Origin: a virus
Virus record (IMG/VR): IMGVR_UViG_3300030329_003696
Location: 32,001 to 96,000 of that record
DNA length: 64,000 nt
Strand: one strand, 5' to 3'
Shown here: piece by piece, positions 5,792-59,322 of the stretch
Layout of the letters: every line of letters starts with the position of its first letter
Position numbering within the stretch: position 1 is the stretch's first letter
Notes under the pieces: generated by a model
Database searches by the model: none
Seen by the model: the letters and a program-made list of their open reading frames with translations, nothing else
What the model was told of the DNA's origin: nothing
Position numbers and translations under genes: made by a program

Positions 5792-5794
5792 CTA

Positions 5795-6211
5795 TTAAGC
5801 CCTCACCGCTTTAATTTCAAAGTGTATTCCCGTCATATGGGTATCAACCACCTTGAGACCCAAGCCAGACACGATCTCTTCAATCGTCACGAGAGAAGAC
5901 GCAGAGCTAATAGATGAAACCACAGAGGACGCCTGATTTAGATCGATAATTCCGTTCAGTACTCCTTTACAAAAAAGTCTTATATCTGTTCCTCCGATGG
6001 AAAGCTCCCCATTCATTCTTAACTTAGTGGAAATAGCTGAAATTAATTCAGGGATAGCATCAATGGTAAAGTCGTCTAAAATATCAGTAGCTAATATTTG
6101 GTCACACTCGTTATTGACAATTTCGCTTAGATCTACGTTGTTTGTCGTAACAGTTATGTGGTGGTAGTTCTCTATTTTGTCTTGACCTTCTCTTAGAATT
6201 TGTAGCTTCAT
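5795..6211 (-). CDS. hypothetical protein, degenerate methyltransferase-like
   Basis: CDQILATDILDDF..KLRMNGELSI resembles SAM-MTase core lacking motif I. Confidence 0.4.
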   Translation of the reverse strand: MKLQILREGQDKIENYHHITVTTNNVDLSEIVNNECDQILATDILDDFTIDAIPELISAISTKLRMNGELSIGGTDIRLFCKGVLNGIIDLNQASSVVSSISSASSLVTIEEIVSGLGLKVVDTHMTGIHFEIKAVRA

Positions 6212-7185
6212 TTTTTCACCTCGTAAGCCTTGTTAAAAATTGTGTTCCATTCTTCGATAAACCTATCTTCGGAGAAAAGGTTTTTAATTGTCTCCCTAGC
6301 ACTTTCGCCCATTTCTTTGGCTAGTTCGGGATCTGCTAATAGCTTTTGTATATAACCCCTTAACTCCTCTTCGTCATTCGATATAAAGCCGTTTTCGCCG
6401 TTGTTTATTATATTGGGCATTTCACAGGTAGCTGTTGTTACTACAGCACAACCGCAAGACATCGCCTCTAGCATAGACGTTGGTACTGGACTTAGTGTGC
6501 TGGGGTTGATATAAACTAGAGAATTTTGGTACTCCTCGACAAGGTGCTCTACAGATTCACTTTGCTTCGATAGACCCTCTGTTTCGCCTACAACCTTTCT
6601 TGGGAGGTCTTTAGTTATTCTTTCCCAACCTTGGTAGTTTAGTGCGTAGTCCCTATTTTTGAAATCGTGAGCAACCGTTAAAACACCCTCTCTTTTTGCT
6701 TCTGGGTCTGGCCTAAAAAGTTCTGTGTCAATTGAGTGATACACAACTTCTCCGCCCATCCCCCATTCTCCCATAGAGTATTTCGTTATGAATACATCAA
6801 TATCACCCTTCATGTTTTGATAGCTTTTCATTTGACTATCCGGCCAGCTAGATAGTGGTAATGTATGCTCAAGTGATATCACGGGAATCTGTAGTGTCCT
6901 ATTTATTTGCTCAGAGATTTGAAATTGACCAAACTTACTATTGGATAGTATGAAGTCAAAATTTATCGCGGAGAATAGAGAATTCTTGGGCAAAACATAA
7001 TAATTCTCCGGCATCGGTGCGTGTCCACTGTACCAATCTTTAGCACCCTCATGCATAAAAGCATAAAAGTTATGTCCCGTTTTCGCCAGTTGCGACTGGT
7101 ATCTTTCGTGGGTATTGAAAGTCAGTATATTGTACTTTTTAGAGGTTCTTTGTACATCACCTATTATGTTTTTTGTTTTAATCAT
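6208..7185 (-). CDS. GT4 glycosyltransferase
   Basis: SMLEAMSCGCAVVTT..NGENGF. Confidence 0.85.
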   Translation of the reverse strand: MIKTKNIIGDVQRTSKKYNILTFNTHERYQSQLAKTGHNFYAFMHEGAKDWYSGHAPMPENYYVLPKNSLFSAINFDFILSNSKFGQFQISEQINRTLQIPVISLEHTLPLSSWPDSQMKSYQNMKGDIDVFITKYSMGEWGMGGEVVYHSIDTELFRPDPEAKREGVLTVAHDFKNRDYALNYQGWERITKDLPRKVVGETEGLSKQSESVEHLVEEYQNSLVYINPSTLSPVPTSMLEAMSCGCAVVTTATCEMPNIINNGENGFISNDEEELRGYIQKLLADPELAKEMGESARETIKNLFSEDRFIEEWNTIFNKAYEVKK

Positions 7186-8296
7186 TTAGAATGTCCTTCA
7201 TTATTGATCCTACGCTTTCAAAAGAAAGGGACTCGCATACTGAGAATCCTGTGCTTTTTGCAGAGTTCTCAAAAGCAACTGGGTTTTTCTCCCAGTCGTT
7301 GTATGCTGATCTCATGGAATTTTTAAGATCTCTATCGTCAGATAGACACGTAAAGTCATGGCCGCAATTCATCTGTAAAATGCTATCTGAGGTTGTCTTG
7401 TTAGATTTTAGACAGAATCCTACTGGATATCCTTGATTTTCCGGCGTAACCTTGAGCAAATCTTTAGACGCTGAAATGTTAGTTAGTATAACCCTGCTAC
7501 CAAGACCCAACGCATCGACACCATGAGTTGCTGATGGAGAGTTTTTGAGATCTATAAAACAGTGCCCATACTGATGTGCTGCCATTAAGTGGTCTTCACT
7601 AAGGTTATTGTCTGTTATAATAACCTCTTTTAAGTAGTCTTTTGCGTCCTTGTTTAGCCTTAGCGTTTCCTTTACATTTGCAGCCGCCCTATTAACCGTT
7701 TCCCTAGCTTGATCTGAAGGATTTGTAACAACAATTATTAGTACAGCTCGATCAGTGTAGTCAAACTCGGAATGGAAGCTAGAAAGGATGGAGTCAAGAG
7801 AGTGACTATCACTGGAATCCACAAAGCAGTAAAGTCTAAATTTATTTCTAGCGTAGGGTATATCTATTGGTTGATAGCGTTGTTTAAACTTCTCTAGGTT
7901 GCATGAGGCTGGCACCACCTTGGTTGAAACTAAATCCCCAATGTTATCACTATAATCTTGATTGGGAACCCATACCTCATCTACTTGCTGTAAGTGTTCT
8001 ATAGTAGAGCTGTGTCTTATGTTTAGGAATGTATTCGATAAGATTGCTATATTCTTTTTAAATTTACTAGAGCCTACTATCGAGTCTGGAAAAACATGCT
8101 GTATGCAGACATCGCAGTCGTCAGCTTTTTTATTCTCAAGCTCAAGTATTCTTCCCTGCGAGGGGATTGAAGACTGTACCTTGATCCCCCTACAAACAAC
8201 GTCAACCCCAGCCTTATCTAGGGATAAAATGTTGTTTCGGGTTATTTGACCCCAATCGCTATTTTCCTTATGGTATCCAATATAGAGAACTTTCAT
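7178..8296 (-). CDS. GT4-like glycosyltransferase (divergent)
   Basis: MKVLYIG, VDEVWVP; GT-B layout with degenerate EAxAxG motif. Confidence 0.6.
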   Translation of the reverse strand: MKVLYIGYHKENSDWGQITRNNILSLDKAGVDVVCRGIKVQSSIPSQGRILELENKKADDCDVCIQHVFPDSIVGSSKFKKNIAILSNTFLNIRHSSTIEHLQQVDEVWVPNQDYSDNIGDLVSTKVVPASCNLEKFKQRYQPIDIPYARNKFRLYCFVDSSDSHSLDSILSSFHSEFDYTDRAVLIIVVTNPSDQARETVNRAAANVKETLRLNKDAKDYLKEVIITDNNLSEDHLMAAHQYGHCFIDLKNSPSATHGVDALGLGSRVILTNISASKDLLKVTPENQGYPVGFCLKSNKTTSDSILQMNCGHDFTCLSDDRDLKNSMRSAYNDWEKNPVAFENSAKSTGFSVCESLSFESVGSIMKDILND

Positions 8297-8868
8297 TAGT
8301 TATCTCCTCCCGACTTCTTAGCCACAATCATAATATCGTCATACCTATCTTTGTTAGATCTCAGGTCTATGGTTTTAATGTCATTAAATACAACCGGAAG
8401 ACTATTCATAATTGGTTCGCAAAATTGTATATCTTGCACATCTTCGATAACAAACACTCCGTCATCTTTCAGTAGCTGAGACCAAAACTTACAGGAAAAA
8501 ACCTGATGATTGGGAAGGTGTGAGCCATCGTCTATGATTATATCAAATTTAATACCTAAGTCTTCTATCTTTCTAATCGTGTCAAAAGAGATGGCATCAG
8601 TGTTTTCGTAAATGGTTACGTTTTCAATGTCATCAAATTGTCGAAGACCGCTTCTTTCATCTAATTCTATACCAATAATATTTGCGTCAGAGAAATAATC
8701 GTTCCAGAGACTAAGCGATCCACCGTGATGGTTCCCAATTTCAAGTAAATTTATCTTCTTATCCTTGTACTCTGAAAACAAGGAGTCATATGTTTCTATG
8801 TAAGAATGACTAGTGTCCTTATCTGTCCCGTAAGACCCACTAGTTATTAGCTCTTTTAAAGTTGACAT
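8296..8868 (-). CDS. SAM-dependent methyltransferase (sugar O-MTase type)
   Basis: YGTDK..HSY, LLEIG..GGSL, FDIIIDDGSH, GVFVIED. Confidence 0.85.
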   Translation of the reverse strand: MSTLKELITSGSYGTDKDTSHSYIETYDSLFSEYKDKKINLLEIGNHHGGSLSLWNDYFSDANIIGIELDERSGLRQFDDIENVTIYENTDAISFDTIRKIEDLGIKFDIIIDDGSHLPNHQVFSCKFWSQLLKDDGVFVIEDVQDIQFCEPIMNSLPVVFNDIKTIDLRSNKDRYDDIMIVAKKSGGDN

Positions 8869-9632
8869 TGTTTCTCCAAATTGTAAAACTTTATGAATTG
8901 CATTCCGGCGTTATTGAATTCTCCGTGAAATCCGAAGGATGAATATGACAATAAGACATCCCTGTTAAAATATTTATACTCAGTGGGATGCTCAACGGAG
9001 AACTTAGCCGCAAGAGAGGGTGGTGCAAAGGTAATGCCCTGTTCCGTCATGCGATCATAATTGAAAACACAAGTGTTGAGGTCTTCGTTCTTATGCTCCC
9101 ACCCCAGACTTGCCGATTCTTCCACAAACTTACGTGTTCTCAGGGAAAACCCTCCGTTGCCAACAACGTTCGGGATTTTCTCTATGCGACCAGCTACCAT
9201 GTCGCTTGCTTGAACTATTGACATCGGCCAAGGAGCACCTATATAGTCATACTCTAAATATTTATCATCCCAATTGGTTATATCTATAATAGTTGAATCA
9301 TGCTGCACATTCAAACAAAAATCATCTAAAATATACTTATTTGTCTGTTGAATAAATGATTCGCAGAATCCGCTTCGATTTTTATCATCATCCGACATGT
9401 TTGATGTTAGTTCTACGCTCATATCGCAGACATCAATGTCGTACTTGTTTATTACATCGTCAAATAAACTTAGGTTTGTTTTACTACTATCTGTAATTAA
9501 AACCGCACGCTTAAACTTTACCTGATCCATACCAATCAGCATAGATCTTAAAGATTTTCTTACATGCTCCTCTCCCCAGCAGAATGTAAAAATAGTTACA
9601 TCCGGAAGCTGCAACTTATTTCCAATAGTCAT
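8856..9632 (-). CDS. DUF5672 family protein (GT-like)
   Basis: QHD, YDYIGAPW, VGNGGFSLR, NED, FGFH. Confidence 0.85.
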   Translation of the reverse strand: MTIGNKLQLPDVTIFTFCWGEEHVRKSLRSMLIGMDQVKFKRAVLITDSSKTNLSLFDDVINKYDIDVCDMSVELTSNMSDDDKNRSGFCESFIQQTNKYILDDFCLNVQHDSTIIDITNWDDKYLEYDYIGAPWPMSIVQASDMVAGRIEKIPNVVGNGGFSLRTRKFVEESASLGWEHKNEDLNTCVFNYDRMTEQGITFAPPSLAAKFSVEHPTEYKYFNRDVLLSYSSFGFHGEFNNAGMQFIKFYNLEKQCQL

Positions 9633-23050: not shown

Positions 23051-24262
23051 CTAGGAAAATAGTTCGGAAATTACTTTTCCTGAATTAGCTATTTTCATAG
23101 GTCGCCCACTATTACTTGTGTAGGTGGTTTGTAGCGAAATGCCAAGAGCCTTACAAACTGAGGCCATAACATCTTGGGATGAATATGCCATTGACTCCAC
23201 TCGTGTGCCGTCTTCGTTAGTTTCACCAACGGCTATGCCGCCGTTCATGCCAGCACCGCCAACGACAACACTCCAGCTTCTCGCCCAGTGATCTCGTCCA
23301 GCGTTTTGATTGATACGTGGAGTCCTGCTAAATTCACCCATCCATATGATAGCTGTGTCCTCCAATAACCCTCTTTGCTCTAAGTCCTCTACTAACGCAC
23401 TCATGCCTTGATCTAGCATGGGTAGTTTCGTGTCTCTTAAGGTTGGGAAGATGTTCTGATGATTATCCCATCCACCTAAACCAACTTCTACAAATGGAAC
23501 TCCAACCTCTACTAAGCGTCTAGCCATCAAGCATCCTTTGCCAAAGCTGTTATCCCCATACCTGTCCCTTACAGATTGTGGTTCTTTTGCTACTTTGGTT
23601 GCGTCCATCTCTGTGCTTGTCAAGACGTTGAAGGTCTTTCTTAATATTTTCTGATGCTCCTTTGCCATACTTCCCCGATTAGTGTTGATAAAATTAGTTT
23701 CTATCATATCGAGAACTTGTGCTCTTTGATAAAATCTTTCATCTATCTTTATGTTGAGATTTCTAATGTTGCCATCACTATTGAGAACCAACGGAGAAAA
23801 CTCTGCACCTAAGAAGCCTGCCCCCATACTCCCACCATTTACAGATATAAACTGTGGAATCATAAGCTCTCTGTCTAATTGCTTAGAGATGACGGAGCCA
23901 TAACTTGGGTGAACCATACTTTGGCTTGGAACATATCCTGTGTGCATGTAGTATCTGCCACGCATATGATCTGCTTCTCTGGTACTCATGCTACGGATGA
24001 TTGCCATGTTGTGCATCTGCTTGGCCATTAATGGCATGTGCTCGCAGATTTCAACGTCGCCAGTCGTAGAGATTGGCTTAAAAGGCCCACCAGTAGCAGC
24101 TCCGGGTTTTAGATCCCAGATATCCATAGTAGATGGTCCACCGCCCATCCAAAGTAGGATGGCCGATTTACCGTTTTTCTTTAGCTGCTGCTCATTAGCT
24201 TTGAGCGTCGTGGTTAAGGTGGCAACTCCCGCTAGGGATGTTAGAAATTCTCTTCTTTTCAT
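23051..24262 (-). CDS. DUF1501 family protein, Tat-exported (copy 1)
   Basis: KRREFL; LWMGGGPSTMDIWD; ARRLVEVGV; GWDNH; GEFSRTP..GRDHW. Confidence 0.92.
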   Translation of the reverse strand: MKRREFLTSLAGVATLTTTLKANEQQLKKNGKSAILLWMGGGPSTMDIWDLKPGAATGGPFKPISTTGDVEICEHMPLMAKQMHNMAIIRSMSTREADHMRGRYYMHTGYVPSQSMVHPSYGSVISKQLDRELMIPQFISVNGGSMGAGFLGAEFSPLVLNSDGNIRNLNIKIDERFYQRAQVLDMIETNFINTNRGSMAKEHQKILRKTFNVLTSTEMDATKVAKEPQSVRDRYGDNSFGKGCLMARRLVEVGVPFVEVGLGGWDNHQNIFPTLRDTKLPMLDQGMSALVEDLEQRGLLEDTAIIWMGEFSRTPRINQNAGRDHWARSWSVVVGGAGMNGGIAVGETNEDGTRVESMAYSSQDVMASVCKALGISLQTTYTSNSGRPMKIANSGKVISELFS

Positions 24263-24263
24263 A

Positions 24264-24641
24264 TTAAAACCTAAAGTGGAAGAACAGCCCACTGAATGGG
24301 GCGGGATAAACCGGCACGGGCTGTGGTTGAATAATGACGGGAGGTCCGTAATAGTGATGATGAATCATTGGCGGATATACCCTGTACTGATATGGATAAA
24401 CGTATGGCCTACCGATTATTATGCTTCCATGTCTATAGTTATGACTGGGTCTAACTTGGGGCTGCTGAGGCCTCTGCCAATCTTGTTTTCCAAAACCAGA
24501 AGGTCTTTGCGGTTGTGGCCTTGTAAAATCCCTAGGGACGCTCTTTACAGTCGGCGGTTTAATAACTTTACGCTCAGGCTGTTGTGCTTCAGCAGACAAC
24601 GGTATAAAAAACAAACATAACAGTGATGCTAAATATTTCAT
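24264..24641 (-). CDS. secreted Pro/Tyr/Gln-rich low-complexity protein
   Basis: signal peptide (AEA|Q), YPY/HHHYYGPP, C-terminal FFHFRF. Confidence 0.6.
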   Translation of the reverse strand: MKYLASLLCLFFIPLSAEAQQPERKVIKPPTVKSVPRDFTRPQPQRPSGFGKQDWQRPQQPQVRPSHNYRHGSIIIGRPYVYPYQYRVYPPMIHHHYYGPPVIIQPQPVPVYPAPFSGLFFHFRF

Positions 24642-24835
24642 TATGCAGCCTCGCAATCTGGGCATTCACAACCGTCTTGACACACACATTCTTGAGTTGG
24701 GCATGGGCATTCGTTTTCGCAGATATCACAAATCACGGGGTTCTCCTTTGTGAACATATTTTTAATTTCATCTTTGTTAATTAAGCAGATTGCGGCAACA
24801 ATAATAACCGCTAAAAAAGGTATTTTAAACTTCAT
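24641..24835 (-). CDS. membrane-anchored Cys-rich (metallothionein-like) peptide
   Basis: TM followed by CDICENECPCPTQECVCQDGCECPDC. Confidence 0.6.
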   Translation of the reverse strand: MKFKIPFLAVIIVAAICLINKDEIKNMFTKENPVICDICENECPCPTQECVCQDGCECPDCEAA

Positions 24836-24845
24836 GGTATTTTCC

Positions 24846-26108
24846 TTAAATGAGAATGTCTGTTAGTATTTTGCCACCGTCTACAATTTCTATTGGGCGG
24901 TCACCGGGAGCCATAAGCTCTTTATCAGCGACAATACCAAGTCTGTTGTAAATAGTAGCTGCCCAGTCTTCTATATTAACTGGGTTTTGATCTGGTTCGC
25001 TCGCCGTAGCGTTGGAGGTTCCGTATGTCATCCCCCCTTTGATTCCACCGCCAGCCAAAACTGTACTGAATACTTTTGGCCAATGGTCTCTTCCTGCACG
25101 ATTGTTAATCTTTGGAGTTCTTCCAAATTCAGAAACCACACAAACCAAAGTAGAATCTAATAATCCACGTTGATCTAAATCTTCAATAAGGGTTGCAAAC
25201 CCTTGATCAAAAGCTGGTAGCTGACTTTTCATTCCGTTCGCTATGTTGTCATGCATATCCCATCCGCCATAGGTTAAAGTGACGAAGCGTGTACCAAATT
25301 CCACCAATCGTCGAGCGAGTAACATTCTAGCACCAGCGGTGTTTCTACCGTATTTGTCTCTGGTTGCCGCTGACTCCTTCTCAAGATCAAACGCATCTTT
25401 TGCGTTCTGGTCTCCTATTAGGCTATAGGCACGGTCATAAAAAGAATTGACAGCCGAGACGGAGTCGGCGTTTTGTTTTTTATTGAAGTCGGTATTTACT
25501 ATGTCTAGCACACGCCGCCTTCTGGAAAATCTCTCGTCTGGAACTGGAACTTTTAAGTCTCTAACCTCGAAGCCCTCGCTTGCCGGATCAGACCCTAAAC
25601 CAAACCCAGAATATGAGCTACTTAGATATCCAGTACCTGCATATTCATTGGGTTGGTTTGGTATGCAGACATATGGAGGAAGGTTTTTGCGTGGGCCAAA
25701 TTCATGTGCAACCACTGAACCCATAGATGGGTATTGAAGGGCTGGGCTAGGTCTATAGCCAGTAAACATATTGTGTGTCCCACGTTCATGAGCAGCCTCC
25801 CCGTGTGTAATACTGCGGATAATTGCAATCTTGTCTGCTACCTTGGCTGTTTTGCCCAATAGTTCTCCAAGGCGTATGCCCGCAACGTTGGTACTAATAC
25901 TACCAAGTGGTCCTCGGTATTCTAACGGGGCGAATGGCTTAGGATCAAATGTCTCCTGATGAGCCATTCCACCCGGAAGATAAATGAAAATAATACTTTT
26001 AGCTGGCCCTTCTTTACTATCGTAGTGTTTTTGATCTGCTCTAGCGAGAGACGCACCTAAAGTACCTAAAACGCCAGCCTTTAAAAAATATCTTCTTTTC
26101 ATCATCAT
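24846..26108 (-). CDS. DUF1501 family protein, Tat-exported (copy 2)
   Basis: KRRYFL; YLPGGMAHQETFDPKP; GWDMH; SEFGRTP..GRDHWP. Confidence 0.93.
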   Translation of the reverse strand: MMMKRRYFLKAGVLGTLGASLARADQKHYDSKEGPAKSIIFIYLPGGMAHQETFDPKPFAPLEYRGPLGSISTNVAGIRLGELLGKTAKVADKIAIIRSITHGEAAHERGTHNMFTGYRPSPALQYPSMGSVVAHEFGPRKNLPPYVCIPNQPNEYAGTGYLSSSYSGFGLGSDPASEGFEVRDLKVPVPDERFSRRRRVLDIVNTDFNKKQNADSVSAVNSFYDRAYSLIGDQNAKDAFDLEKESAATRDKYGRNTAGARMLLARRLVEFGTRFVTLTYGGWDMHDNIANGMKSQLPAFDQGFATLIEDLDQRGLLDSTLVCVVSEFGRTPKINNRAGRDHWPKVFSTVLAGGGIKGGMTYGTSNATASEPDQNPVNIEDWAATIYNRLGIVADKELMAPGDRPIEIVDGGKILTDILI

Positions 26109-26115
26109 TTCCTTG

Positions 26116-26256
26116 TTAGAATAAAAACCTTGACCACCAACCTTGGGATGCTCCCAAGAAGTACACTCCTACTAGAGCACCACCGATGAGGGCGGCACGT
26201 CTAATCAATCGGTGCTTTCTAATAAAGCTAGCGATAGGACCGTTAAACAGGGGCAT
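26116..26256 (-). CDS. 46-aa membrane peptide (not in ORF track)
   Basis: GGAGG RBS; MPLFNGPIASFIRKHRLIRRAALIGGALVGVYFLGASQGWWSRFLF; fills gap. Confidence 0.6.
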   Translation of the reverse strand: MPLFNGPIASFIRKHRLIRRAALIGGALVGVYFLGASQGWWSRFLF

Positions 26257-26272
26257 AGTTACCTCCATTAGG

Positions 26273-27532
26273 TTAAAGAATTACTTTTGCTTCACCCTCC
26301 AACAAATATCTGGGACGACCAGACATGTCAGTACGTTGAATCGCTCCATCAATTCCAAAATGGTCAAACAGCGTTGCTTGTAGATCGAGTGGTCCCACTG
26401 GGTTTTCTATGGGGCTATACGACCTGTCTGCTTCACCAATCGTTCTTCCTGATTGATAATTACCACCAGCCATCATCATTGGTGTAATTGCAGGCCAATG
26501 GTCTCTACCAGAGTTAGCATTGATTTTGGTTCTACCAAACTCTCCGGTAACTACCAGTAAAACTTTCTCATTTAAGCCTCTATCCCAAACATCTTGTAAA
26601 AATCCTGCAATCGCTTTGTCGATGGGGGGAACTCTTCCCTTCAATGACTTAGAAATATTACTATGCATGTCCCATCCACCATAGTGCAGGGTGATGAACT
26701 TGGTTCCATACTCAACTAATCTTCTTGCTAATATCATTTGTTCACCAATGTCGTTGGCCTTTTCAGAACCGTACAGAGCTTTTGTCGTTTCTGATTCTTG
26801 ATCTGTAGCAAACGCATCTTTAGCAGAACCAAGAATCACGTCATAGGCTTGCCCCTTATAGAAACCAACTGAATCAGCACTCTTCCCCTGAATACTTTTT
26901 GATGCTGAACCAAGTGCTCCCAATAGATCCTTTCTAGTGTTGAATCTGTTAATCTCAATCCGTGGTTTAAGATTATCCTTATTGGATGGGTCAAATGGTT
27001 TGTATGCACCACCAAGCCAAGCTCCCTCATCCCCCTCGATTTTGCCTTGCTTCACATAAGAAGGCACTCCATTTCGAGGGTGGTTGGTTCCATACACTGA
27101 AGATATCAGCGAACCAAAAGAGGGGTATTTAGCAGTGGAGGTGGTTGTTCTTTCTGGATTATAATGCCCAGTCATCATAAAGTGGGTACCCTGTCTATGT
27201 GAGGAATCTTTATGACTAAACGAATTAACCACGTTTAACTTAGCTGTGTGTTTAGAAAGCTCGTACCAGTCCTGACCTAAAGTAATGTTAGTACTGGAGT
27301 CATGCGTAGCACCGTTTACTGGTCGCCACTCTGTGGGTACCGTGTCCTTTGGTGCGTGAAAAGTTTCAAACTGCGTAGGACCGCCACCAAGCCACACCCA
27401 GACAACAGCTTTGTCATTCAGGCTCTGTGCATTAGCGGCAAAGACTTCATCAGAGAAGCCTGCCATTGTCATCCCCGCTCCTATAGATCCAACCCTAAGA
27501 AAATCCCTTCGATTAAAGATAAAATCGAGCAT
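26273..27532 (-). CDS. DUF1501 family protein, Tat-exported (copy 3)
   Basis: NRRDFL; WLGGGPTQFETF; GWDMH; GEFGRT..GRDHWP. Confidence 0.92.
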   Translation of the reverse strand: MLDFIFNRRDFLRVGSIGAGMTMAGFSDEVFAANAQSLNDKAVVWVWLGGGPTQFETFHAPKDTVPTEWRPVNGATHDSSTNITLGQDWYELSKHTAKLNVVNSFSHKDSSHRQGTHFMMTGHYNPERTTTSTAKYPSFGSLISSVYGTNHPRNGVPSYVKQGKIEGDEGAWLGGAYKPFDPSNKDNLKPRIEINRFNTRKDLLGALGSASKSIQGKSADSVGFYKGQAYDVILGSAKDAFATDQESETTKALYGSEKANDIGEQMILARRLVEYGTKFITLHYGGWDMHSNISKSLKGRVPPIDKAIAGFLQDVWDRGLNEKVLLVVTGEFGRTKINANSGRDHWPAITPMMMAGGNYQSGRTIGEADRSYSPIENPVGPLDLQATLFDHFGIDGAIQRTDMSGRPRYLLEGEAKVIL

Positions 27533-38353: not shown

Positions 38354-39423
38354 AGTTTCATATCTCCAAAGTCCATATCGTCCAAATCGTTTTTACTAGC
38401 ACCTATTTTATAACTAGTGATCTCGTGTTCTTGAGGTGCAACCTGAACACTCTCACTCTGCATCCACGCCTGAGTCCATCCTGCTATTGGGTTCTTGCCG
38501 ACATTCTCGTAAGGTAGCCCAATCATTTTTCTTCTGCTCATACAAAGCCAGTCAACATATTGATGCAAAACTGTTTCGTTGAGACCGATAATTGAACCAT
38601 CCTTAAATAGGTAAGACGCCCACTTCTTTTCCTCCTCTGCGGCGTTTTCAAACATTTTTACCGCATCTTCTTCGCACTGTTGAGCAATCTTGGTGAAACC
38701 CTCTGATTCTTCTTTTTGCAATATTTTAAGTATTTCTTTCGTGTTTGTTAGGTGTAACGCTTCGTCTCTTTTGATTAGTTTAATAATGTCCGCATTTCCT
38801 ACCATTTTTTTATTTTCAGCGAAAGCAAAACTGCAAACAAAGCTAACATAAAATCTAACGGCTTCTAGGATATTAATGCTCATTACGGTCATATATATTT
38901 GCTTCTTGAGGTCTGAAGGTTTGTTTTTATCACAAGCCATCCCCATCAGATTGTTATAATCACGAATGGCACCGTTTGCACGTTTCATGATTTCTTTATC
39001 CTCATAAATCCCCCCAAAGACCTCTGAGCTGTCTGCATACACGTTTTGAATAATGTATGAGTAAGATTGGCTATGAATTTTTTCAAAGAACTGCCACGTC
39101 ATGAGGCAGGCCTCTAGCTCTGTATTTGTAACAAACTCTAGTAAGGTTGGTACGCCTCGACAAATTACGCTGTCGAGCATAGTTTGATACTTCAAGTTAG
39201 AGGTGAAGATAAATTTCTCATTATCTGACATCTCTTTAAAATCTCCACGATCTTTTTTTAGCTCTATCTCTTCCGGCCTCCAGAAGTTCATCATCTGCTT
39301 ACTGTCAAGATCCTTAAAGATTGGATACTTAAGAACGTCGTAACGCTGAACACCTAAATCCTTCCCCAGAAATAGGGGTTGTGTCATTGGGTCTACGTTC
39401 TTGGTGTTGAAAATAGTCTTCAT
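38350..39423 (-). CDS. nrdB: class Ia ribonucleotide reductase beta subunit
   Basis: FWRPEE, EKIHSQSY, LEAVRFYVSF, RDEALH, VAPQE. Confidence 0.95.
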   Translation of the reverse strand: MKTIFNTKNVDPMTQPLFLGKDLGVQRYDVLKYPIFKDLDSKQMMNFWRPEEIELKKDRGDFKEMSDNEKFIFTSNLKYQTMLDSVICRGVPTLLEFVTNTELEACLMTWQFFEKIHSQSYSYIIQNVYADSSEVFGGIYEDKEIMKRANGAIRDYNNLMGMACDKNKPSDLKKQIYMTVMSINILEAVRFYVSFVCSFAFAENKKMVGNADIIKLIKRDEALHLTNTKEILKILQKEESEGFTKIAQQCEEDAVKMFENAAEEEKKWASYLFKDGSIIGLNETVLHQYVDWLCMSRRKMIGLPYENVGKNPIAGWTQAWMQSESVQVAPQEHEITSYKIGASKNDLDDMDFGDMKL

Positions 39424-39824
39424 TTTTTTTTGGCCTCTTGAATTTTTTGCCTTAAACCGGATGATGAATACCCGAACCTCTTGCAGTAATGAATTTCTAT
39501 GTCTAACTCACTACCAGTAAAGTCCGTCTTTGTTATGTAGTCTTCGCCTAAGAATCTGATATGATAGTCACCACTTTTTAATATGACATACAGGTCTTCC
39601 TCAGTCTCGTAGGGTATTATTTCATCAATAAACACGTTTGATTTTAATCTTAGGTATCTTTGATAAACCGTCTCTATTGGTTTGTTTTTATCTGGTCTAT
39701 CAATTGTTGGGTCGGTGTGTAAGCCTACTGTAAGTTTTCTACAGTGCTTTTTGCACTCTTCCAACATAAGTATATGACCGGCATGACATAGATCAAAAGC
39801 CGAACAGGTGAAACCGTTTTTCAT
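39420..39824 (-). CDS. cytidylyltransferase (TagD-like) between nrdA and nrdB
   Basis: AFDLCHAGH, LGEDY, YSSS. Confidence 0.85.
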   Translation of the reverse strand: MKNGFTCSAFDLCHAGHILMLEECKKHCRKLTVGLHTDPTIDRPDKNKPIETVYQRYLRLKSNVFIDEIIPYETEEDLYVILKSGDYHIRFLGEDYITKTDFTGSELDIEIHYCKRFGYSSSGLRQKIQEAKKK

Positions 39825-42091: not shown

Positions 42092-42119
42092 ATTATAACA
42101 CATCTAGGCCGTAAGTCAA
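42092..42119 (-). promoter_or_regulatory. sigma70-type promoter for nrdA
   Basis: TTGACT-16-TATAAT. Confidence 0.55.
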
Positions 42120-42176: not shown

Positions 42177-42350
42177 TCATTTTAAAATTTTAATTTCTAC
42201 ATTATCACCAATCTTAATCAGTATAATGTCTTTTCCATTCTCCTTTGTGAAAGAAATCATATCGAGTATTTCAGTTGCCTTGTCTATGTCTTTTTGTTCT
42301 ACGTTTACATGTTCTAGTATTGATTCAACTATTTTGTCCGTGATGCCCAT
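42177..42350 (-). CDS. small hypothetical protein
   Basis: TAATG coupling to upstream ORF. Confidence 0.55.
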   Translation of the reverse strand: MGITDKIVESILEHVNVEQKDIDKATEILDMISFTKENGKDIILIKIGDNVEIKILK

Positions 42351-42820
42351 TATTGATGTACACCCCATGCGATAGCACTGAGTGAATCATGCAAGCTCTT
42401 TCTCTTTTTCGCTGTTAACTGACTATCTTCTAGACCTATTGTATTTACGATAATACTATCTATCTCTTCTCCAAGGTTGGGATACTTATCCTTTAGATCT
42501 AAGCCCGCAAAGTTAAGGCCACCAGACTTTATATTGAACTCTCTGAATTTTCCTGTGGAGTCCAAAAATCCGGGATCTGACTTAACTACATCTGCGACCT
42601 CTAGGAAGAAGTCCGATATCTGCGTTGCGTCTTTTTTATCTATATCCATATCTACAACCTTCTGAACGAGCGTTTTGTATTCCAAAGTTGGCTCGTCCAC
42701 GTTAACTGACGGTGTGTTAACAATCTCTACGTTATTTTTTACAATTTCAATGATCTGTTCGCCAAAGAAAGCAGCTACCACAAGGATGGTGGCTAGTATT
42801 AGCTTTACAGTATTAGGCAT
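42350..42820 (-). CDS. membrane-anchored extracytoplasmic protein
   Basis: N-terminal TM/signal, helical body. Confidence 0.65.
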   Translation of the reverse strand: MPNTVKLILATILVVAAFFGEQIIEIVKNNVEIVNTPSVNVDEPTLEYKTLVQKVVDMDIDKKDATQISDFFLEVADVVKSDPGFLDSTGKFREFNIKSGGLNFAGLDLKDKYPNLGEEIDSIIVNTIGLEDSQLTAKKRKSLHDSLSAIAWGVHQ

Positions 42821-43103
42821 TTTTCACCTCTCTATCGTCCACCTTTGGAACAAAGAGAGGGAAGATCTTATCTAATTCGTCACAAGCAGAGTTTAGTTTT
42901 GCTTTCTCACAGCTAACCTTTAGATGCTCCCAACACCTGATAATTTCCACCAAGGAAGAGTCCTTCGGGATTCCGTCTTGGGGAATATATGGCTTTACAT
43001 CGCTAGGTTTAAAACTAGAGGCAAAGCCTTTAATATGGGGCCAAAAAACACTCAGTGCTAATATGGCCGCTCCAACAAGCATAATAATTTGAAAAGTGTT
43101 CAT
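42813..43103 (-). CDS. single-TM protein
   Basis: IIMLVGAAILALSVFW; C..C..C. Confidence 0.6.
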   Translation of the reverse strand: MNTFQIIMLVGAAILALSVFWPHIKGFASSFKPSDVKPYIPQDGIPKDSSLVEIIRCWEHLKVSCEKAKLNSACDELDKIFPLFVPKVDDREVKNA

Positions 43104-43105
43104 CT

Positions 43106-43447
43106 TTACTCCTGTATACTTTCCATTAAATCAAACAATTCTCTTTCTGAAAGTGTTTTTGACACCTCTGAGAAACTTTTGTATAACGCTTTTCTTTCGT
43201 CCTTGCCTTTAAAATTCTTCCTTATTTCTTTTCTTATTAGATATCTATGGATAATGTTGTCGGATCGAATTGCCGACAACATTTTTTCTTTCGAGTAACA
43301 CATATATAATAGCTTAACTACGGATATAATGCAATTACAAATTGCCATAATGGTGAACGGATCAAAAGAAAACTTGTCACATCTTGATTGTGCGTGTGCT
43401 AGTATTCTTCGACCGATCAATTGTTGTGCTTCTGGTAAATCACTCAT
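43106..43447 (-). CDS. hypothetical protein
   Basis: FSFDPFTIMAI hydrophobic segment. Confidence 0.6.
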   Translation of the reverse strand: MSDLPEAQQLIGRRILAHAQSRCDKFSFDPFTIMAICNCIISVVKLLYMCYSKEKMLSAIRSDNIIHRYLIRKEIRKNFKGKDERKALYKSFSEVSKTLSERELFDLMESIQE

Positions 43448-44126
43448 CGTTTAATTTCTCCTGTATAGTCTCAACCATTTTACTAGCATCCATAAAGCCC
43501 GAAAATCTATGTACTGGGTTTTCTAGGTTATCATGATCGAGAAAAATTACGGTCGGGTAATACTTTACTTTGTAGTACAAAAAAAACTTCTTATGATCTG
43601 GATTATCCTCGTCATAAATAATAAGTTTTGCCTTCTTCTGCTCTATCGCTTCTTTGACCCTCCTGCTTGCCCAAGTCTGCTGTTTCATTTTCTCGCATGG
43701 GCCACACCACTTCGCTCCAAAATGATAGATGTAGAATTCTGGATCGTCTGAAGATATCAAAAAGTCTTGGGATGACTCTTTTTTTTTAACGTCTTCTTTT
43801 AGGGGGAAACATTGACCACTTTCTTGACAGTTACACTCTTGTTTATCGCAGCCGCAGTCACACCCACTGTTTGGCTTTGGGTCTGGCTCAGGCTTAACTT
43901 TGTCTTCGCACGCAGAACATCCGGGGCATTCTGTTTTGTGACCATCTCCGTGAGTAATCCATCCAGAACCATCACACTTTTCTTCTACTGTGTCCTCATC
44001 TTCAGTCATTATGACTTTGGCTAGGTTTGTAGATATATATGGTCTATGGTTTATGTTGTCTTCGTTCCCTGTAAAATTGAATGTCACTAAAGCTGAGGCT
44101 AAAAGCCAAGTACCTAGTATTTTCAT
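43440..44126 (-). CDS. exported thioredoxin-domain protein with Cys-rich linker
   Basis: signal peptide; CDGSG..CPGCSAC, CDCGC..CNC; AKWCGPC; YPT cis-Pro. Confidence 0.85.
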   Translation of the reverse strand: MKILGTWLLASALVTFNFTGNEDNINHRPYISTNLAKVIMTEDEDTVEEKCDGSGWITHGDGHKTECPGCSACEDKVKPEPDPKPNSGCDCGCDKQECNCQESGQCFPLKEDVKKKESSQDFLISSDDPEFYIYHFGAKWCGPCEKMKQQTWASRRVKEAIEQKKAKLIIYDEDNPDHKKFFLYYKVKYYPTVIFLDHDNLENPVHRFSGFMDASKMVETIQEKLNDE

Positions 44127-44135
44127 GATAGCACC

Positions 44136-45062
44136 CTATAGGTATGATGATGTACCGTAATCTGGTAAGTTTCTAGCTGGAAAACCTTCCACGTCACTAA
44201 AAACCCAAGATCCTTGTTCTGCCAACATTCCTCTGGCGTCCTTTTCACGTATCCAAAAACTACCTTCTGGTTGACCATGTACTTTTGGCCCACTATTCCA
44301 TTTACCCCAACTGTTTTGAACTAGGAAGAGGGTTTCTCGAAACCGTTTTTTGGTGTCATCACAAGCTATCCAAGCCATAGCATGGTTCCAGCCGGAGCCA
44401 CGCTTGGCAATCCCGTTAGTATCCCTACGACTGCTGAACCCATACCCTGAGCATACGCTGAGAGCGTAACCATTAGAGAGTGCATCTCTAGCTTCTTCGA
44501 CTGTGGTTATCATTGAAATAGTTTTTACCTGATGCTTTTTAGCCTCTGTAGAATAAATCTTAGAGGGTATTTGATGTCTAGCACCAAGGGCTGAGTTGTA
44601 TGTAGAGAGATCTACTTCGCCATAGTCTTTTCTTAGTAGAATACCGCCCTTAGAGTGGACGTACTTAGCGGCACCGGAACAGGTCATGCCTTGTCCTCTG
44701 TGGCCCCTAGATTGATATATTGCCTCTGTAGCACTGCGAGTTTCAAAAGATTCTAACTCGCCTTTTATGTCTATCTCCACTGCTCTCGTTATATCGACGG
44801 CGTTTCTGGTGGAGTGAGAAACACAGTCTCCTGTCGTTTGCCTTTCAGACGGCCCAAAACTTGAATCAAACTTCAGCAAAGACTTAAACGGCAGGGAGAG
44901 TTTACCCTCTCCGCTACCGAAAAGTCTGTAGGCGGTCGCACCAAAAATAGGTGTTTTTAACTTTGCGAGAAGCTCTGCTGTTTCTTCTGGGTCGCAGATG
45001 CTTCCCTCAAAACCGTTTCTGTAGGCATTCAACAATTCCCTCGGACTGCTGAATGTGTCCAT
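44136..45062 (-). CDS. papain-like (C1) cysteine peptidase
   Basis: QTTGDCVS (oxyanion Q, catalytic C), WNHAM, VQNSWG. Confidence 0.85.
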   Translation of the reverse strand: MDTFSSPRELLNAYRNGFEGSICDPEETAELLAKLKTPIFGATAYRLFGSGEGKLSLPFKSLLKFDSSFGPSERQTTGDCVSHSTRNAVDITRAVEIDIKGELESFETRSATEAIYQSRGHRGQGMTCSGAAKYVHSKGGILLRKDYGEVDLSTYNSALGARHQIPSKIYSTEAKKHQVKTISMITTVEEARDALSNGYALSVCSGYGFSSRRDTNGIAKRGSGWNHAMAWIACDDTKKRFRETLFLVQNSWGKWNSGPKVHGQPEGSFWIREKDARGMLAEQGSWVFSDVEGFPARNLPDYGTSSYL

Positions 45063-45064
45063 TA

Positions 45065-45277
45065 TTACTCCTCGTCTTTGTTGTCTTTAAGCCATTTAAT
45101 GGCGGTATCCAAACCAACAGCAACGATGGGTACAAAAAGTGTACCAAGAGTACCTAGATCAATTTGATCCAAATTGCCAGCTACGTAGGTAAGAGCTGCT
45201 GCTCCACCCACCAACAGGGCGTTCTTGCCGATCTTAGAAATATCGGCCCAGTTTAGTGTAAATTTCTTAGAACCCAT
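45065..45277 (-). CDS. holin-like two-TM protein
   Basis: 70 aa, two hydrophobic helices, charged C-terminus KWLKDNKDEE. Confidence 0.6.
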   Translation of the reverse strand: MGSKKFTLNWADISKIGKNALLVGGAAALTYVAGNLDQIDLGTLGTLFVPIVAVGLDTAIKWLKDNKDEE

Positions 45278-45278
45278 A

Positions 45279-45854
45279 TCAGTTCTCCTTATAAAGATGA
45301 ATTAAAAAACCTTCGTGAGACTTTTCACTGATCCTGTACGGATAACCTAAAAAGTGAATTTTCTGTCCATGTACCGATTCAGTCTCTATATCGACTCTCC
45401 TGCACATTCTGAGGCAGGAATTGAACTCCTTTAAGAACTCTTCTCTTTCTTCCTCATTTATTATAGAAATCCAGTCAAGCCCCTCCGTGAAATCTCCATT
45501 GTCTTTCGTTAGTTCTTGAAAAGATTCATTGCTCCAAGTCACTCTACCGGTTTTATCAGTTTCAAAGAGAGGTCTACCGGTGTAGTGAAGTGCCGCTTTT
45601 GATCTTTGGTCTAAAACCTTTTGCGTTACTTCTATCCTTTGACAAGTATCCTTAAGGCAGTTGATTGCGTCTTTCATTGAGCCTCCGCCGTTTGGCGTGA
45701 CTTCGCTTTTAATAGTCTCGATAGAATCCTTTAAATACTCATGATCTTTTAGAAAAACCCTGCTAACCTTGAACACCCTCCACAAGAAAATAATTAATGA
45801 TCCACCAAGCCCTAATATTGTACCTATAGTTGTAGCTTCTTCTTGTGATAACAT
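45279..45854 (-). CDS. TM + coiled coil + PAS-domain protein
   Basis: N-terminal TM; EVTPNGGGSMKD; FETDKTGRVTWSN..GLDWISIINEEER PAS pattern. Confidence 0.7.
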   Translation of the reverse strand: MLSQEEATTIGTILGLGGSLIIFLWRVFKVSRVFLKDHEYLKDSIETIKSEVTPNGGGSMKDAINCLKDTCQRIEVTQKVLDQRSKAALHYTGRPLFETDKTGRVTWSNESFQELTKDNGDFTEGLDWISIINEEEREEFLKEFNSCLRMCRRVDIETESVHGQKIHFLGYPYRISEKSHEGFLIHLYKEN

Positions 45855-45869: not shown

Positions 45870-45911
45870 TTAAAAATACCCCACCCCCCAGAGGGGAGCG
45901 GGGGTTTTTAA
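45870..45911 (-). terminator. intrinsic terminator
   Basis: AAAAACCCCCGCTCCCC-TCT-GGGGGGTGGGGTATTTTT on minus strand. Confidence 0.75.
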
Positions 45912-45928
45912 GATGCACGTACAGGGGT

Positions 45929-46591
45929 TTAGATCACGCCGCTTTCTGGGGTGTCTTTACCTTTGTACTGATCCTGTTTCGGATTCTTACCACCAAACAT
46001 GTAGGTAAGTTCACCCGGAACAGCTCTGGTCGTATTAGCTTCATTGTCACTAGCAGCAACGTCTCCAGCACCACTTGGTGCTACCATGTTTACGTCGTTG
46101 GCAGCACCAGTTCTACTAGTTACGAAACCATTAATGGTTGTAGATGGGGTAGCTAGAATATCAATGACCGTATCACCGATTTTCTTACGCTTGTTGTTTG
46201 ACGTAACATTGCTTCTAGTTGCGTCCATACCTTCGCTATCAGCCGCACCGCCAATCAGCTTGGTGTTCGCTGCGTTGTTGAGAGTAGTGGTAACATTACC
46301 ACCCTGAACAACCCACTGAGTTGCGGTTGAATTGTATGCAATGGTTCCAGCTTGACCAGCTCTAGCTTGACTAACACCGGCTCTGTCTGTGGTATTAGCA
46401 CCCGAACCAGCATTTACTACAACCTTAGAACCAAAGCTCTCGCCAAAATCATCAGCGATGTCAGCGAGGCTAAGGTTCTTGGTCATGACTCCGGCGGCAT
46501 TGCTACCACCGTGGATGACGGTACCACCATCATTTTTTGCACCAGCTCCGACAGCTTCGTCGCCAGCACCACTTGGACGTACAGTAGGCAT
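45929..46591 (-). CDS. Gly/Ala/Thr-rich protein, probable virion structural component
   Basis: composition; own upstream TATAAT element and downstream terminator. Confidence 0.55.
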   Translation of the reverse strand: MPTVRPSGAGDEAVGAGAKNDGGTVIHGGSNAAGVMTKNLSLADIADDFGESFGSKVVVNAGSGANTTDRAGVSQARAGQAGTIAYNSTATQWVVQGGNVTTTLNNAANTKLIGGAADSEGMDATRSNVTSNNKRKKIGDTVIDILATPSTTINGFVTSRTGAANDVNMVAPSGAGDVAASDNEANTTRAVPGELTYMFGGKNPKQDQYKGKDTPESGVI

Positions 46592-57850: not shown

Positions 57851-58090
57851 CTATTTATTCTCCTTGTAATTTTGTTTGTTGTCTTCGTAGTATTGTTTAT
57901 TCTCTAGTACAGAAGTTGCCTCGTGTTCATGCTTAAAATAATGCTTGAATTGTTTGTATAGTGCTTTCACCTGCTCAAATGCTTCTTCTTCGCATATCTT
58001 GCCGCCTTGCTCCAAGTCACATATGATAGACATCTGTATATTAAAGGCTCTAAAGGGGTCATCGTACTTTTCAAATTTGAATTTACTCAT
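57851..58090 (-). CDS. small hypothetical protein
   Basis: ICDLEQGGKI..AFEQVK. Confidence 0.6.
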   Translation of the reverse strand: MSKFKFEKYDDPFRAFNIQMSIICDLEQGGKICEEEAFEQVKALYKQFKHYFKHEHEATSVLENKQYYEDNKQNYKENK

Positions 58091-59322
58091 TATCTCCAGC
58101 CTTCACGCAACACTCTTAAAGCATTACCTCCTAAAAACTTAGCTATTACTTCGTCTGAATATTTTTGTTTTCCAAGCCCGCTTGTGAGACACTTAAGATA
58201 CTTCGTTATTCTCGGAATCTCTGACATATCTGTGATCTCGTCTGGTGGATCGGTGAAGCCATCAAAGTCCGTGCCGATGCCAACAATGTCTGAACCACCA
58301 ATCTTCATGGCGTGTTCTAAAGTTCTTTCAATATATTTAATCCCTAAAGGTGAGTCAACGGGACTAATCCAGTAGTTCATAAAGATAATACCTAGAACGC
58401 CTCCGTGTTGGCTAAACCATTCTAGCTCCCAGTCGTGTAGGTTGTACGGGTCTGGGTTTACCTCGAAAACTCCTGTATGACTGCTTATGACTCGGTTCTG
58501 CCTGTCCCCAACAATTTCGTAGACCTGCGACCTAGCCTTTGGTGTGCAGTGTGCGATGTCTATAATCATACTTAGTTCACACATACGCTCTACAACCTTC
58601 TTGCCTATCTCGGAAAGACCTACGTTCATATCCCAGTTAGCCATGAGCTTCTTCCAGTTGCCCCTTTTGATGCCATAGTTGGGGTACGGAAACACTGGGT
58701 GTGCGACGAGGTTGGGATAGAAGTGTGCAAGTGTCAGATACGCTACGCCTCTCTCAGCAAAATAGTCTAGGTGCTGTAATATTTCAGCTTCCTTCACTCT
58801 CATATCTGTTGAGGTTTCGCAATCAACACCCTGTAGACTATGACCCCCTTCAATAGAGTGAATCATAGCAATGTGATTGTTTTCAATACACTGTGTAAGT
58901 TCGTGATTGTTCTTAACTATACATACCGGCTTAGATTTTGAGAAATCTATTTTATTATTATATTCAGTTATATGCTTCTCCATGTCGTCAATCATGTTGA
59001 CGGTAGCATCAAAGTAAAAGGGATCAAAAACCCTTCTTCTTACACTCGGTGCTAGGGCTAGTGCCAGCTTCACTAAACTCTGGTCTTCGAGCCATTCCCT
59101 TTCTGGTATATAGCAAGTAGAGAGAATAATATCTACTCCACCCTTCTCCACTAGGGGAAATGTAGTACGCTGACTTAGAGGCCAGAACGCTCTTTTGAAC
59201 AGGCCAGCCAGAAACTTGGTTTTGCTGGCAGAGAGATCCCTGTCTAGTAAGAAACGCTTGAGTACAGCATGGTTGTGTAAGTCAACAACCGTAGAATTTT
59301 TATGTAAGTCTTGCCAATTCAT
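58090..59322 (-). CDS. membrane dipeptidase (peptidase M19, amidohydrolase fold)
   Basis: DLHNH, SIEGGH, LTLAH, IDIAH, SSHT, GIGTDFDG, GGNALRV. Confidence 0.88.
   Translation of the reverse strand: MNWQDLHKNSTVVDLHNHAVLKRFLLDRDLSASKTKFLAGLFKRAFWPLSQRTTFPLVEKGGVDIILSTCYIPEREWLEDQSLVKLALALAPSVRRRVFDPFYFDATVNMIDDMEKHITEYNNKIDFSKSKPVCIVKNNHELTQCIENNHIAMIHSIEGGHSLQGVDCETSTDMRVKEAEILQHLDYFAERGVAYLTLAHFYPNLVAHPVFPYPNYGIKRGNWKKLMANWDMNVGLSEIGKKVVERMCELSMIIDIAHCTPKARSQVYEIVGDRQNRVISSHTGVFEVNPDPYNLHDWELEWFSQHGGVLGIIFMNYWISPVDSPLGIKYIERTLEHAMKIGGSDIVGIGTDFDGFTDPPDEITDMSEIPRITKYLKCLTSGLGKQKYSDEVIAKFLGGNALRVLREGWR

What the first reader, a model, noticed from the sequence alone, without database searches (positions are those of the whole stretch)
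42177..45854. Candidate non-muralytic lysis cassette: holin-like protein + papain-like cysteine protease + exported thioredoxin + TM-PAS protein
Seen: a block bounded by a terminator (45870-45911) and the nrdA promoter. It encodes, in order, a TM-PAS protein with a PNGGGSMKD segment, a 2-TM holin-like protein, a signal-less C1 peptidase with intact Q/C/H/N, a signal-peptide WCGPC thioredoxin, and four small mostly membrane proteins. No amidase, muramidase or transglycosylase is recognisable. Established: holin next to an endolysin is the standard lysis layout; NGGxSxxD-type TM proteins occur beside holins in actinophages; planctomycete envelopes were described as Cys/Pro-rich disulfide-crosslinked protein sacculi. 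Inference: the protease takes the endolysin slot and the thioredoxin reduces envelope disulfides (redox-assisted proteolytic lysis), with the PAS protein as a timing or antiholin sensor.
Basis: partly seen in the sequence, partly recalled or inferred. Interest (0 to 1): 0.88.

Follow-up and report, generated by a model that had tools for sequence, protein, structure and literature searches.

The report
Protease-based lysis module of planctomycete phages
Viruses of planctomycete bacteria in which no known wall-breaking enzyme could be found share a conserved gene set built around a papain-like protease with membrane partners, which probably lets them burst out of the cell and would be an undescribed route of phage lysis.

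Summary
The genes are real. The window is a ~170-kb phage, probably of planctomycetes, co-binned in an unrelated MAG. The protease has a papain C1A fold with an intact Q/C/H/N set. Its family has 2,152 clusters and no curated model. In 59 full loci the core is: protease, exported Cys-knuckle protein (59), two membrane-anchored proteins (56 each), and exactly one of two unrelated holin-like genes (37+22). Thioredoxin (28) and PAS (35) are accessory; complete relatives lack them. Elsewhere the partners fuse with the protease into one membrane-anchored chain. In three planctomycete prophages the module lies just before terminase, the lambda lysis slot. No canonical endolysin was found in complete genomes, and other phages carry a separate head protease. 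Best reading (0.55): a holin/endolysin-like module with a C1A lysin, substrate unknown. New here: an A9 slippage site giving knuckle-thioredoxin or knuckle-basic-tail products. Inteins sit at all three catalytic motifs in relatives. The scan noted similar cassettes and the inteins before on other DNA, unchecked. No function has been shown experimentally.

The parts
45879..45903 (-). Intrinsic-terminator-like hairpin upstream of the block (ends the 220-aa gene)
45279..45854 (-). 1-TM (N-out/C-in) helical NGGxSxKD segment + cytoplasmic PAS domain; accessory (35/59 loci); topology like LysF1b-type 1-TM holins; other lineages have a 1-TM coiled-coil protein without PAS
45065..45277 (-). 70-aa 2-TM holin-like protein; mutually exclusive with an unrelated 58-aa 2-TM protein that hits PHROG holins
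44136..45062 (-). Signal-less C1A (papain-fold) cysteine peptidase, Q75 (44838-44840), C80 (44823-44825), H227 (44382-44384), N250 (44313-44315); residues ~1-50 possibly a pro-region (inferred); proposed lysin
43440..44126 (-). Exported protein: signal + helix + Cys knuckle (43905-43976; core, 59/59) + Cys-rich linker + thioredoxin domain (WCGPC at 43695-43709; accessory, 28/59)
43779..43787 (-). A9 tract between knuckle and thioredoxin: candidate transcriptional-slippage or phase-variation site; one extra A gives a 171-aa product with a K/R-rich amphipathic segment like the C-termini of thioredoxin-less orthologues
43612..43778 (-). Overprinted alternative frame (basic amphipathic tail) reached by +1 A
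43106..43447 (-). 113-aa protein, marginal hydrophobic helix, frequent module member (39/59)
42813..43103 (-). 96-aa N-terminal TM protein, core (56/59; look-alikes in distant prophages)
42350..42820 (-). 156-aa TM-anchored helical-bundle protein, core; fused N-terminally to the protease in 14 homologues; no clear structural match
42177..42368 (-). 57-63-aa soluble protein, clade-specific neighbour (36/59), moves independently of the module
42092..42119 (-). sigma70-like promoter of nrdA (boundary, not part of the module)

Best explanation
This is most likely the lysis module of a large group of planctomycete phages, with a papain-family (C1A) protease in the endolysin role. SHOWN (by comparison of sequences): an intact C1A enzyme; a conserved partner set; an ever-present small 2-TM gene; fusions placing the 156-aa domain, protease and knuckle in one chain behind a hydrophobic N-terminal anchor; placement directly before terminase in several prophages; no canonical lysin detected. 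INFERRED: the signal-less protease accumulates in the cytoplasm and is released by the 2-TM holin (perhaps with the 1-TM/PAS protein, as in the LysF1a/LysF1b pair). It docks on the membrane-anchored 156-aa protein and the exported knuckle protein and cuts the load-bearing envelope layer. Lineages whose protease has its own anchor would act like SAR-type lysins. I put the substrate at about 55% envelope proteins and 45% peptidoglycan peptides. Thioredoxin is a repeatedly recruited helper, most plausibly keeping the catalytic Cys and the knuckle in the right redox state in the periplasm. The A9 tract probably sets the ratio of knuckle-thioredoxin to knuckle-basic-tail products. PAS is a lineage-specific add-on.
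For: Fold: xylellain Z 18.9 (rmsd 3.0, 216 aligned), Cwp84 Z 16.4, PeiR Z 11.4; Foldseek E 1e-7. Phage C1-like domains in BFVD include entries named N-acetylmuramidase and peptidoglycan-binding-like. Co-occurrence: knuckle 59/59, 96-aa and 156-aa genes 56/59, hol70 37 + h58 22, never both, never neither; the two are unrelated (hhalign 0.8%); h58 hits PHROG holins at E 6e-4 and 1.5e-3. Fusions: 14 of 158 full-length homologues carry the 156-aa domain, 29 have a hydrophobic N-terminus, and P0187/P0200 add the knuckle. Complex prediction of protease + 156-aa protein: weak support, 0.58 vs best control 0.00 (mark reached by 58/80 solved and 2/110 mismatched pairs, but at <=0.60 by only 7 solved and both mismatches; runs agree >=77%, partner pLDDT >=81). 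Prophages G206, G172 and G373 have the module 1-4 genes before terminase. G206's ~26-kb prophage shows no lysin family. No Amidase_2/3, lysozyme, SLT, PG_binding_1, M15_3/4, Hydrolase_2, M23, NlpC/P60 or CHAP in G000 and complete G001/G002; six of these were also run on complete G006, with no match. About 73/166 long or representative homologues carry inteins at the catalytic Cys, His or Asn motifs, consistent with a strongly conserved, needed enzyme.
Against: No experiment. In this clade the block lies among replication and nucleotide genes (between a sigma-like gene and nrdA), on the strand opposite the structural genes. Prophage-free-looking chromosomal copies exist in Pirellulales MAGs (between gatAB and fatty-acid genes), which fits a non-lytic, host-useful role. 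The window's 70-aa gene has no significant holin profile hit. In about 20 loci the 1-TM gene is separated from the module. No wall-binding domain was found fused to the protease. Missing known lysin families is common in uncultured phages; the GH19 and GH108 controls did not ring, and GH25, glucosaminidase and PF11860 were not searched across whole genomes.
Confidence: 0.55

Rival explanations
1. One reading: the thioredoxin reduces disulfides of a proteinaceous host sacculus so the protease can digest it, and PAS times lysis.
For: An exported thioredoxin recurs: in the module (28/59), in the distant G206 prophage (WCPYC), probably fused to the protease in P0253/P0254 (CPPC; hhalign only 14%, E 0.002), and elsewhere in G003/G006 with signal peptides. 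Older literature describes a disulfide-bonded protein sacculus (PMC2754498).
Against: Thioredoxin is lost in the nearest relatives and absent from complete G002. PAS is absent from G003, G005 and G006. The CXXC dipeptide varies. Planctomycetes have lysozyme-sensitive, DAP-containing peptidoglycan (PMC4432640).
Confidence: 0.13
2. Non-lytic envelope remodelling: a membrane-tethered periplasmic protease complex that cleaves receptors or surface proteins (superinfection exclusion, Cwp84-like maturation, host modification).
For: Location among middle genes in this clade; chromosomal copies without nearby phage genes (G286); general-protease C1A fold including Cwp84; anchored fusion forms.
Against: A holin-like gene is always present, in two unrelated forms. 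The signal-less protease has no other evident exit. Pre-terminase slot in prophages. These phages would then have no identifiable lysin at all.
Confidence: 0.22
3. Virion maturation protease.
For: In L178 the module follows the capsid gene; phage cysteine proteases can process structural proteins (own knowledge).
Against: L178 has its own S78 protease. G373 has a long protease/capsid-type gene after portal (my reading). The sister phage C9 has a Clp-family gene before terminase and a 498-aa gene between portal and capsid. Fusion to membrane anchors fits the envelope, not the capsid.
Confidence: 0.05
4. The thioredoxin is simply the electron donor of the adjacent NrdAB (concerns that one gene only).
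For: nrdA/nrdB lie directly downstream.
Against: It is fused behind a signal/lipobox and knuckle, travels with the protease when nrdA is elsewhere, and occurs in the G206 prophage, which has no RNR.
Confidence: 0.05

Closest known systems
Canonical holin-endolysin cassette (lambda S-R-Rz/Rz1 before terminase)
   Same: Small 2-TM gene next to a signal-less hydrolase, plus TM-anchored and lipoprotein partners; pre-terminase slot in prophages
   Different: The hydrolase is C1A, not a muramidase, amidase or known endopeptidase. Partners fuse with the enzyme, which spanins do not do (own knowledge); no spanin profile hits.
Mycobacteriophage LysF1a (2-TM) + LysF1b (1-TM, N-out/C-in, DUF2746) pair (PMC13056207)
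   Same: Adjacent 1-TM N-out/C-in helical protein and 2-TM protein
   Different: No PF10874 hit in 23 homologues; a PAS domain is appended; host is diderm
Papain-superfamily lysins: CHAP/NlpC-P60 endolysins; archaeal PeiW/PeiP (C71) and PeiR (C39) (PMC10318531, PMC6189367)
   Same: Cys-His-type phage lysins needing reducing conditions; PeiR aligns at Z 11.4
   Different: Closer to C1A (Z 16-19); no wall-binding domain; membrane partners and an optional thioredoxin
Bacterial C1A proteases xylellain (Xylella) and Cwp84 (C. difficile surface-layer-associated)
   Same: Fold and catalytic Q/C/H/N; Cwp84 processes a protein envelope layer (own knowledge)
   Different: About 17% identity; phage-encoded; no lectin or cell-wall-binding domains; intein hot spot
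A9/T9 transcriptional slippage, e.g. T. thermophilus dnaX (PMC5009743)
   Same: A run of 9 giving alternative C-termini
   Different: Here it toggles thioredoxin versus a basic tail in a phage envelope protein; slippage not shown

Membership tests
Peptidase C1A (papain family) | Papain fold | tested here: met
   (Z 18.9 to xylellain)
Peptidase C1A (papain family) | Oxyanion Gln, catalytic Cys, His, Asn in papain order | tested here: met
   Q75, C80, H227, N250 invariant in A1; N250 >=90% in A4
Peptidase C1A (papain family) | Pfam PF00112 above cut-off | tested here: not met
   window copy no hit; 4/27 members weak, best E 0.0027
Peptidase C1A (papain family) | Thiol-dependent proteolysis | not testable with these tools
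   needs assay
Holin-endolysin lysis cassette | Small membrane protein linked to the hydrolase | tested here: met
   59/59 loci have one of two 2-TM genes
Holin-endolysin lysis cassette | 70-aa protein belongs to a known holin family | tested here: inconclusive
   no PHROG/Pfam hit; ESM neighbours named holin at 0.94, r1t holin 0.88
Holin-endolysin lysis cassette | Known peptidoglycan-hydrolase domain | tested here: not met
   11 families with working controls negative in G001/G002; ORF scans
Holin-endolysin lysis cassette | Late expression, membrane permeabilisation, lysis phenotype | not testable with these tools
LysF1b/DUF2746 1-TM holin | 1 TM, N-out/C-in, basic residues after the TM | tested here: met
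LysF1b/DUF2746 1-TM holin | PF10874 match | tested here: not met
   0/23 at E<=0.5
Thioredoxin family | Trx fold with CXXC and conserved Pro | tested here: met
PAS domain | PAS profile/feature match | tested here: met
   PAS_9 18/23, best E 2e-7; ESM 0.95-0.99; window copy below Pfam cut-off
Programmed slippage site | Run of >=9 A with conserved coding in both frames | tested here: met
Programmed slippage site | Both products made in vivo | not testable with these tools
   needs RNA reads or proteomics
Capsid maturation protease | Only protease candidate, located in the head module | tested here: not met

The most novel reading that the evidence does not exclude
Planctomycete phages lyse their hosts without any peptidoglycan hydrolase: a membrane-assembled papain complex cuts envelope proteins, tuned by an exported thioredoxin whose dose is set by poly-A slippage, with the alternative basic amphipathic tail helping to breach the outer membrane. 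This would mean proteins, not only peptidoglycan, bear load in planctomycete envelopes.
Probability: 0.25. Interest if true: 0.92.

Novelty: new variant of a known kind. Interest (0 to 1): 0.74.

Why it matters
My searches of the held literature found no paper describing a lysis system of planctomycete phages; that library is partial. This module covers about 2,150 protein clusters at 50% identity, large marine phages and prophages of several planctomycetes, and has no curated family. Its substrate would show which layer actually holds the planctomycete envelope together, a long-disputed question, and compact prophages such as G206's make this testable. It would also add a C1A lysin class, an intein hot spot outside nucleotide enzymes, and a phage slippage switch.

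Tried and rejected
PDB sequence searches for the protease and PAS found nothing significant. No match among 50,697 GenBank phage records. The 156-aa model (pLDDT 88) had only generic helical-bundle matches (best Z 7.0; Atlas TM <=0.41), so its fold is unassigned. GH19 and GH108 searches are uninformative because the controls did not ring. The binned MAG as host was rejected: 0/300 other genomes of its phylum carry the protease, against 7/401 in the phylum of a Pirellulales MAG, several on large chromosomal contigs. Hits in Flavobacteriales and Lewinella MAGs are on short contigs and probably misbinned (inference). A homopolymer sequencing error is an unlikely cause of the A9 pattern, because it recurs in 11 genomes of two thioredoxin lineages with a tail-like alternative frame; it is not excluded for single genomes, and a relic of gene fusion remains possible. 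The label-change count on the tree failed technically, so no statistical test of independence was made; kin are not independent.
Full report
Setting. The window is contig C7 (152,655 bp) of a 1.36-Mb MAG. Most contigs are bacterial; C7 and C9+C13 are two related large phages binned with them. Relatives with complete genomes are 131-174 kb (G001 and G006 with terminal repeats, G002 100% by CheckV). The host is most likely a planctomycete. Protease homologues lie in Pirellulales and Planctomycetaceae assemblies and in 7/401 genomes of that phylum, several on megabase contigs, against 0/300 other genomes of the MAG's own phylum. The window also carries DUF1501-type genes whose best plasmid hit is Singulisphaera.

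Observation. The 308-aa protein has no Pfam, PHROG, PDB-sequence or GenBank-phage hit. Its model (pLDDT 78) matches papain-family C1A enzymes: xylellain Z 18.9, Cwp84 16.4, against PeiR 11.4 and a C39-like enzyme 11.3. Q75, C80, H227 and N250 are invariant in 27 homologues, and there is no hydrophobic segment. The profile finds 2,152 clusters at 50% identity.

What is conserved. In 59 non-redundant loci with full flanks, the Cys-knuckle protein follows the protease in 59, and the 96-aa and 156-aa membrane-anchored genes occur in 56. The other three have diverged look-alikes upstream. The thioredoxin domain occurs in 28 and PAS in 35. Every locus has exactly one small 2-TM gene: the 70-aa type (37) or an unrelated 58-aa type (22) that hits PHROG holin families. 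The 70-aa type itself has only feature-level holin support. The nearest relatives lack thioredoxin although nested among carriers; complete G002 has none; G003 and G006 keep a signal-bearing one elsewhere. PAS is absent from G003, G005 and complete G006. Where PAS is missing, a 1-TM coiled-coil protein takes the slot behind the 220-aa gene. So the module is protease + knuckle + 156-aa + 96-aa + a holin-like gene; thioredoxin and PAS are accessory. These counts include kin and are not independent events.

Where it acts. Of 158 full-length long or representative homologues, 29 begin with a hydrophobic anchor and 14 are fusions of the 156-aa domain to the protease. P0187 and P0200 add the knuckle; P0253 and P0254 end in a Pro stalk and a CPPC thioredoxin-like domain (weak, hhalign 14%). 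L171, L172 and L174 fuse the 156-aa domain with the knuckle. Many knuckle proteins have lipoboxes. Co-folding of the protease with the 156-aa domain gave weak support: 0.58 against 0.00 for the best control; the mark was reached by 58/80 solved and 2/110 mismatched pairs, but at <=0.60 by only 7 solved and both mismatches; runs agree >=77%, partner pLDDT >=81. I infer an extracytoplasmic, membrane-tethered enzyme complex, which the signal-less version must reach through a hole. No wall-binding domain was found in any fusion.

Why lysis. In prophages G206, G172 and G373 the module lies one to four genes before terminase, where lambda keeps its lysis genes (own knowledge); in G399 it precedes the late genes. 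G206's ~26-kb prophage also has a thioredoxin in the module and no lysin family. Eleven lysin families with working controls are undetected in G000, G001 and G002, and six of them in G006. Scans of about 90 unannotated and structural C7 ORFs found none. Host amidases lie far from the prophages. Separate head proteases exist in L178 (S78), and the sister phage has candidates in its head module. The 1-TM plus 2-TM pair mirrors LysF1b/LysF1a in topology (PMC13056207) but without a DUF2746 hit. Against lysis: in this clade the block sits among replication genes, and some Pirellulales carry it without nearby phage genes. A non-lytic envelope role therefore keeps 0.22.

Substrate and redox. Planctomycetes have lysozyme-sensitive peptidoglycan (PMC4432640), so the 'protein sacculus' premise (PMC2754498) cannot be assumed. 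The C1A fold favours protein substrates, but papain-superfamily lysins cut wall peptides too (PMC10318531, PMC6189367), and BFVD lists C1-like phage domains in proteins named as muramidase or PG-binding. The simplest job for an optional exported thioredoxin is protecting the catalytic Cys or folding the knuckle (inference).

New features. (i) An A9 run at 43779-43787 separates knuckle and thioredoxin. As encoded it yields the 228-aa fusion; one extra A yields a 171-aa product with a K/R-rich amphipathic segment resembling the C-termini of thioredoxin-less orthologues. The same arrangement is in L006 (A10, tail in frame), L010 and L013, and in a second thioredoxin lineage (L052, L055-L057, L062, L067 A10 split; L058 A11 fused). 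C7 has only three runs of >=9 A/T in 152 kb, and tail-like 18-mers occur in 2/3,555 blocks of the window's minus strand, a set that includes this site. Runs of nine slip efficiently in bacteria (PMC5009743). Most thioredoxin-fused orthologues lack the run, so it is a sub-lineage feature; slippage itself is not shown. (ii) About 73/166 long or representative homologues carry inteins, by motif count 57 immediately before the catalytic Cys, 23 after the His and 7 at the Asn motif (the set is enriched for long proteins). The window's copy has none.

Verdict. A real, widespread, apparently undescribed phage module. Lysis with a C1A lysin is the best reading (0.55). First-stage readers of this scan noted similar cassettes and the inteins in other genomes; those notes were unchecked and are not counted as evidence.

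Noticed in passing
G000 contigs C7, C9, C13: About 310 kb (23%) of this MAG is two large phages, yet it is rated 1.43% contaminated.
   Followed up: yes
window 23051-27532: Three adjacent ~415-aa genes of DUF1501 type (one checked: best plasmid hit Singulisphaera); possible host-derived auxiliary genes.
   Followed up: partly
L100/L101 ~4700-9340: The module sits in Pirellulales chromosomes between gatAB-like and fatty-acid genes with no phage genes within 7 kb, with an esterase-like gene inserted: domesticated copy or remnant.
   Followed up: partly
G286:C1 ~881700-894400: A compact capsid/tail-like gene cluster resembling G206's prophage lies ~6 kb from a module copy; possibly a defective prophage or GTA-like element.
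   Followed up: no
window 39423-39431: The only other A9 run in the window lies at the junction of the 142-aa gene and the nrdB start.
   Followed up: no
G000:C13 12453-14654; L042, L044, L056, L071: A different ~735-aa RNR (class II-like by my reading) replaces nrdA in the same slot; in L025-L031 nrdA is split around a 244-aa ORF (intron or homing element?).
   Followed up: no
window 45929-46591: A Gly/Ala/Thr/Asn-rich 220-aa protein with a conserved C-terminal motif always precedes the 1-TM gene in this clade; no family hit.
   Followed up: partly
window 58090-59322: Membrane dipeptidase family M19 (E 3e-49), shared with the sister phage; unusual in phages.
   Followed up: no
P0132, P0134, P0135, P0137, P0208, P0232, P0280, P0285: Inteins occur even in protease versions with an N-terminal export anchor, which is unusual for inteins (own knowledge).
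   Followed up: partly
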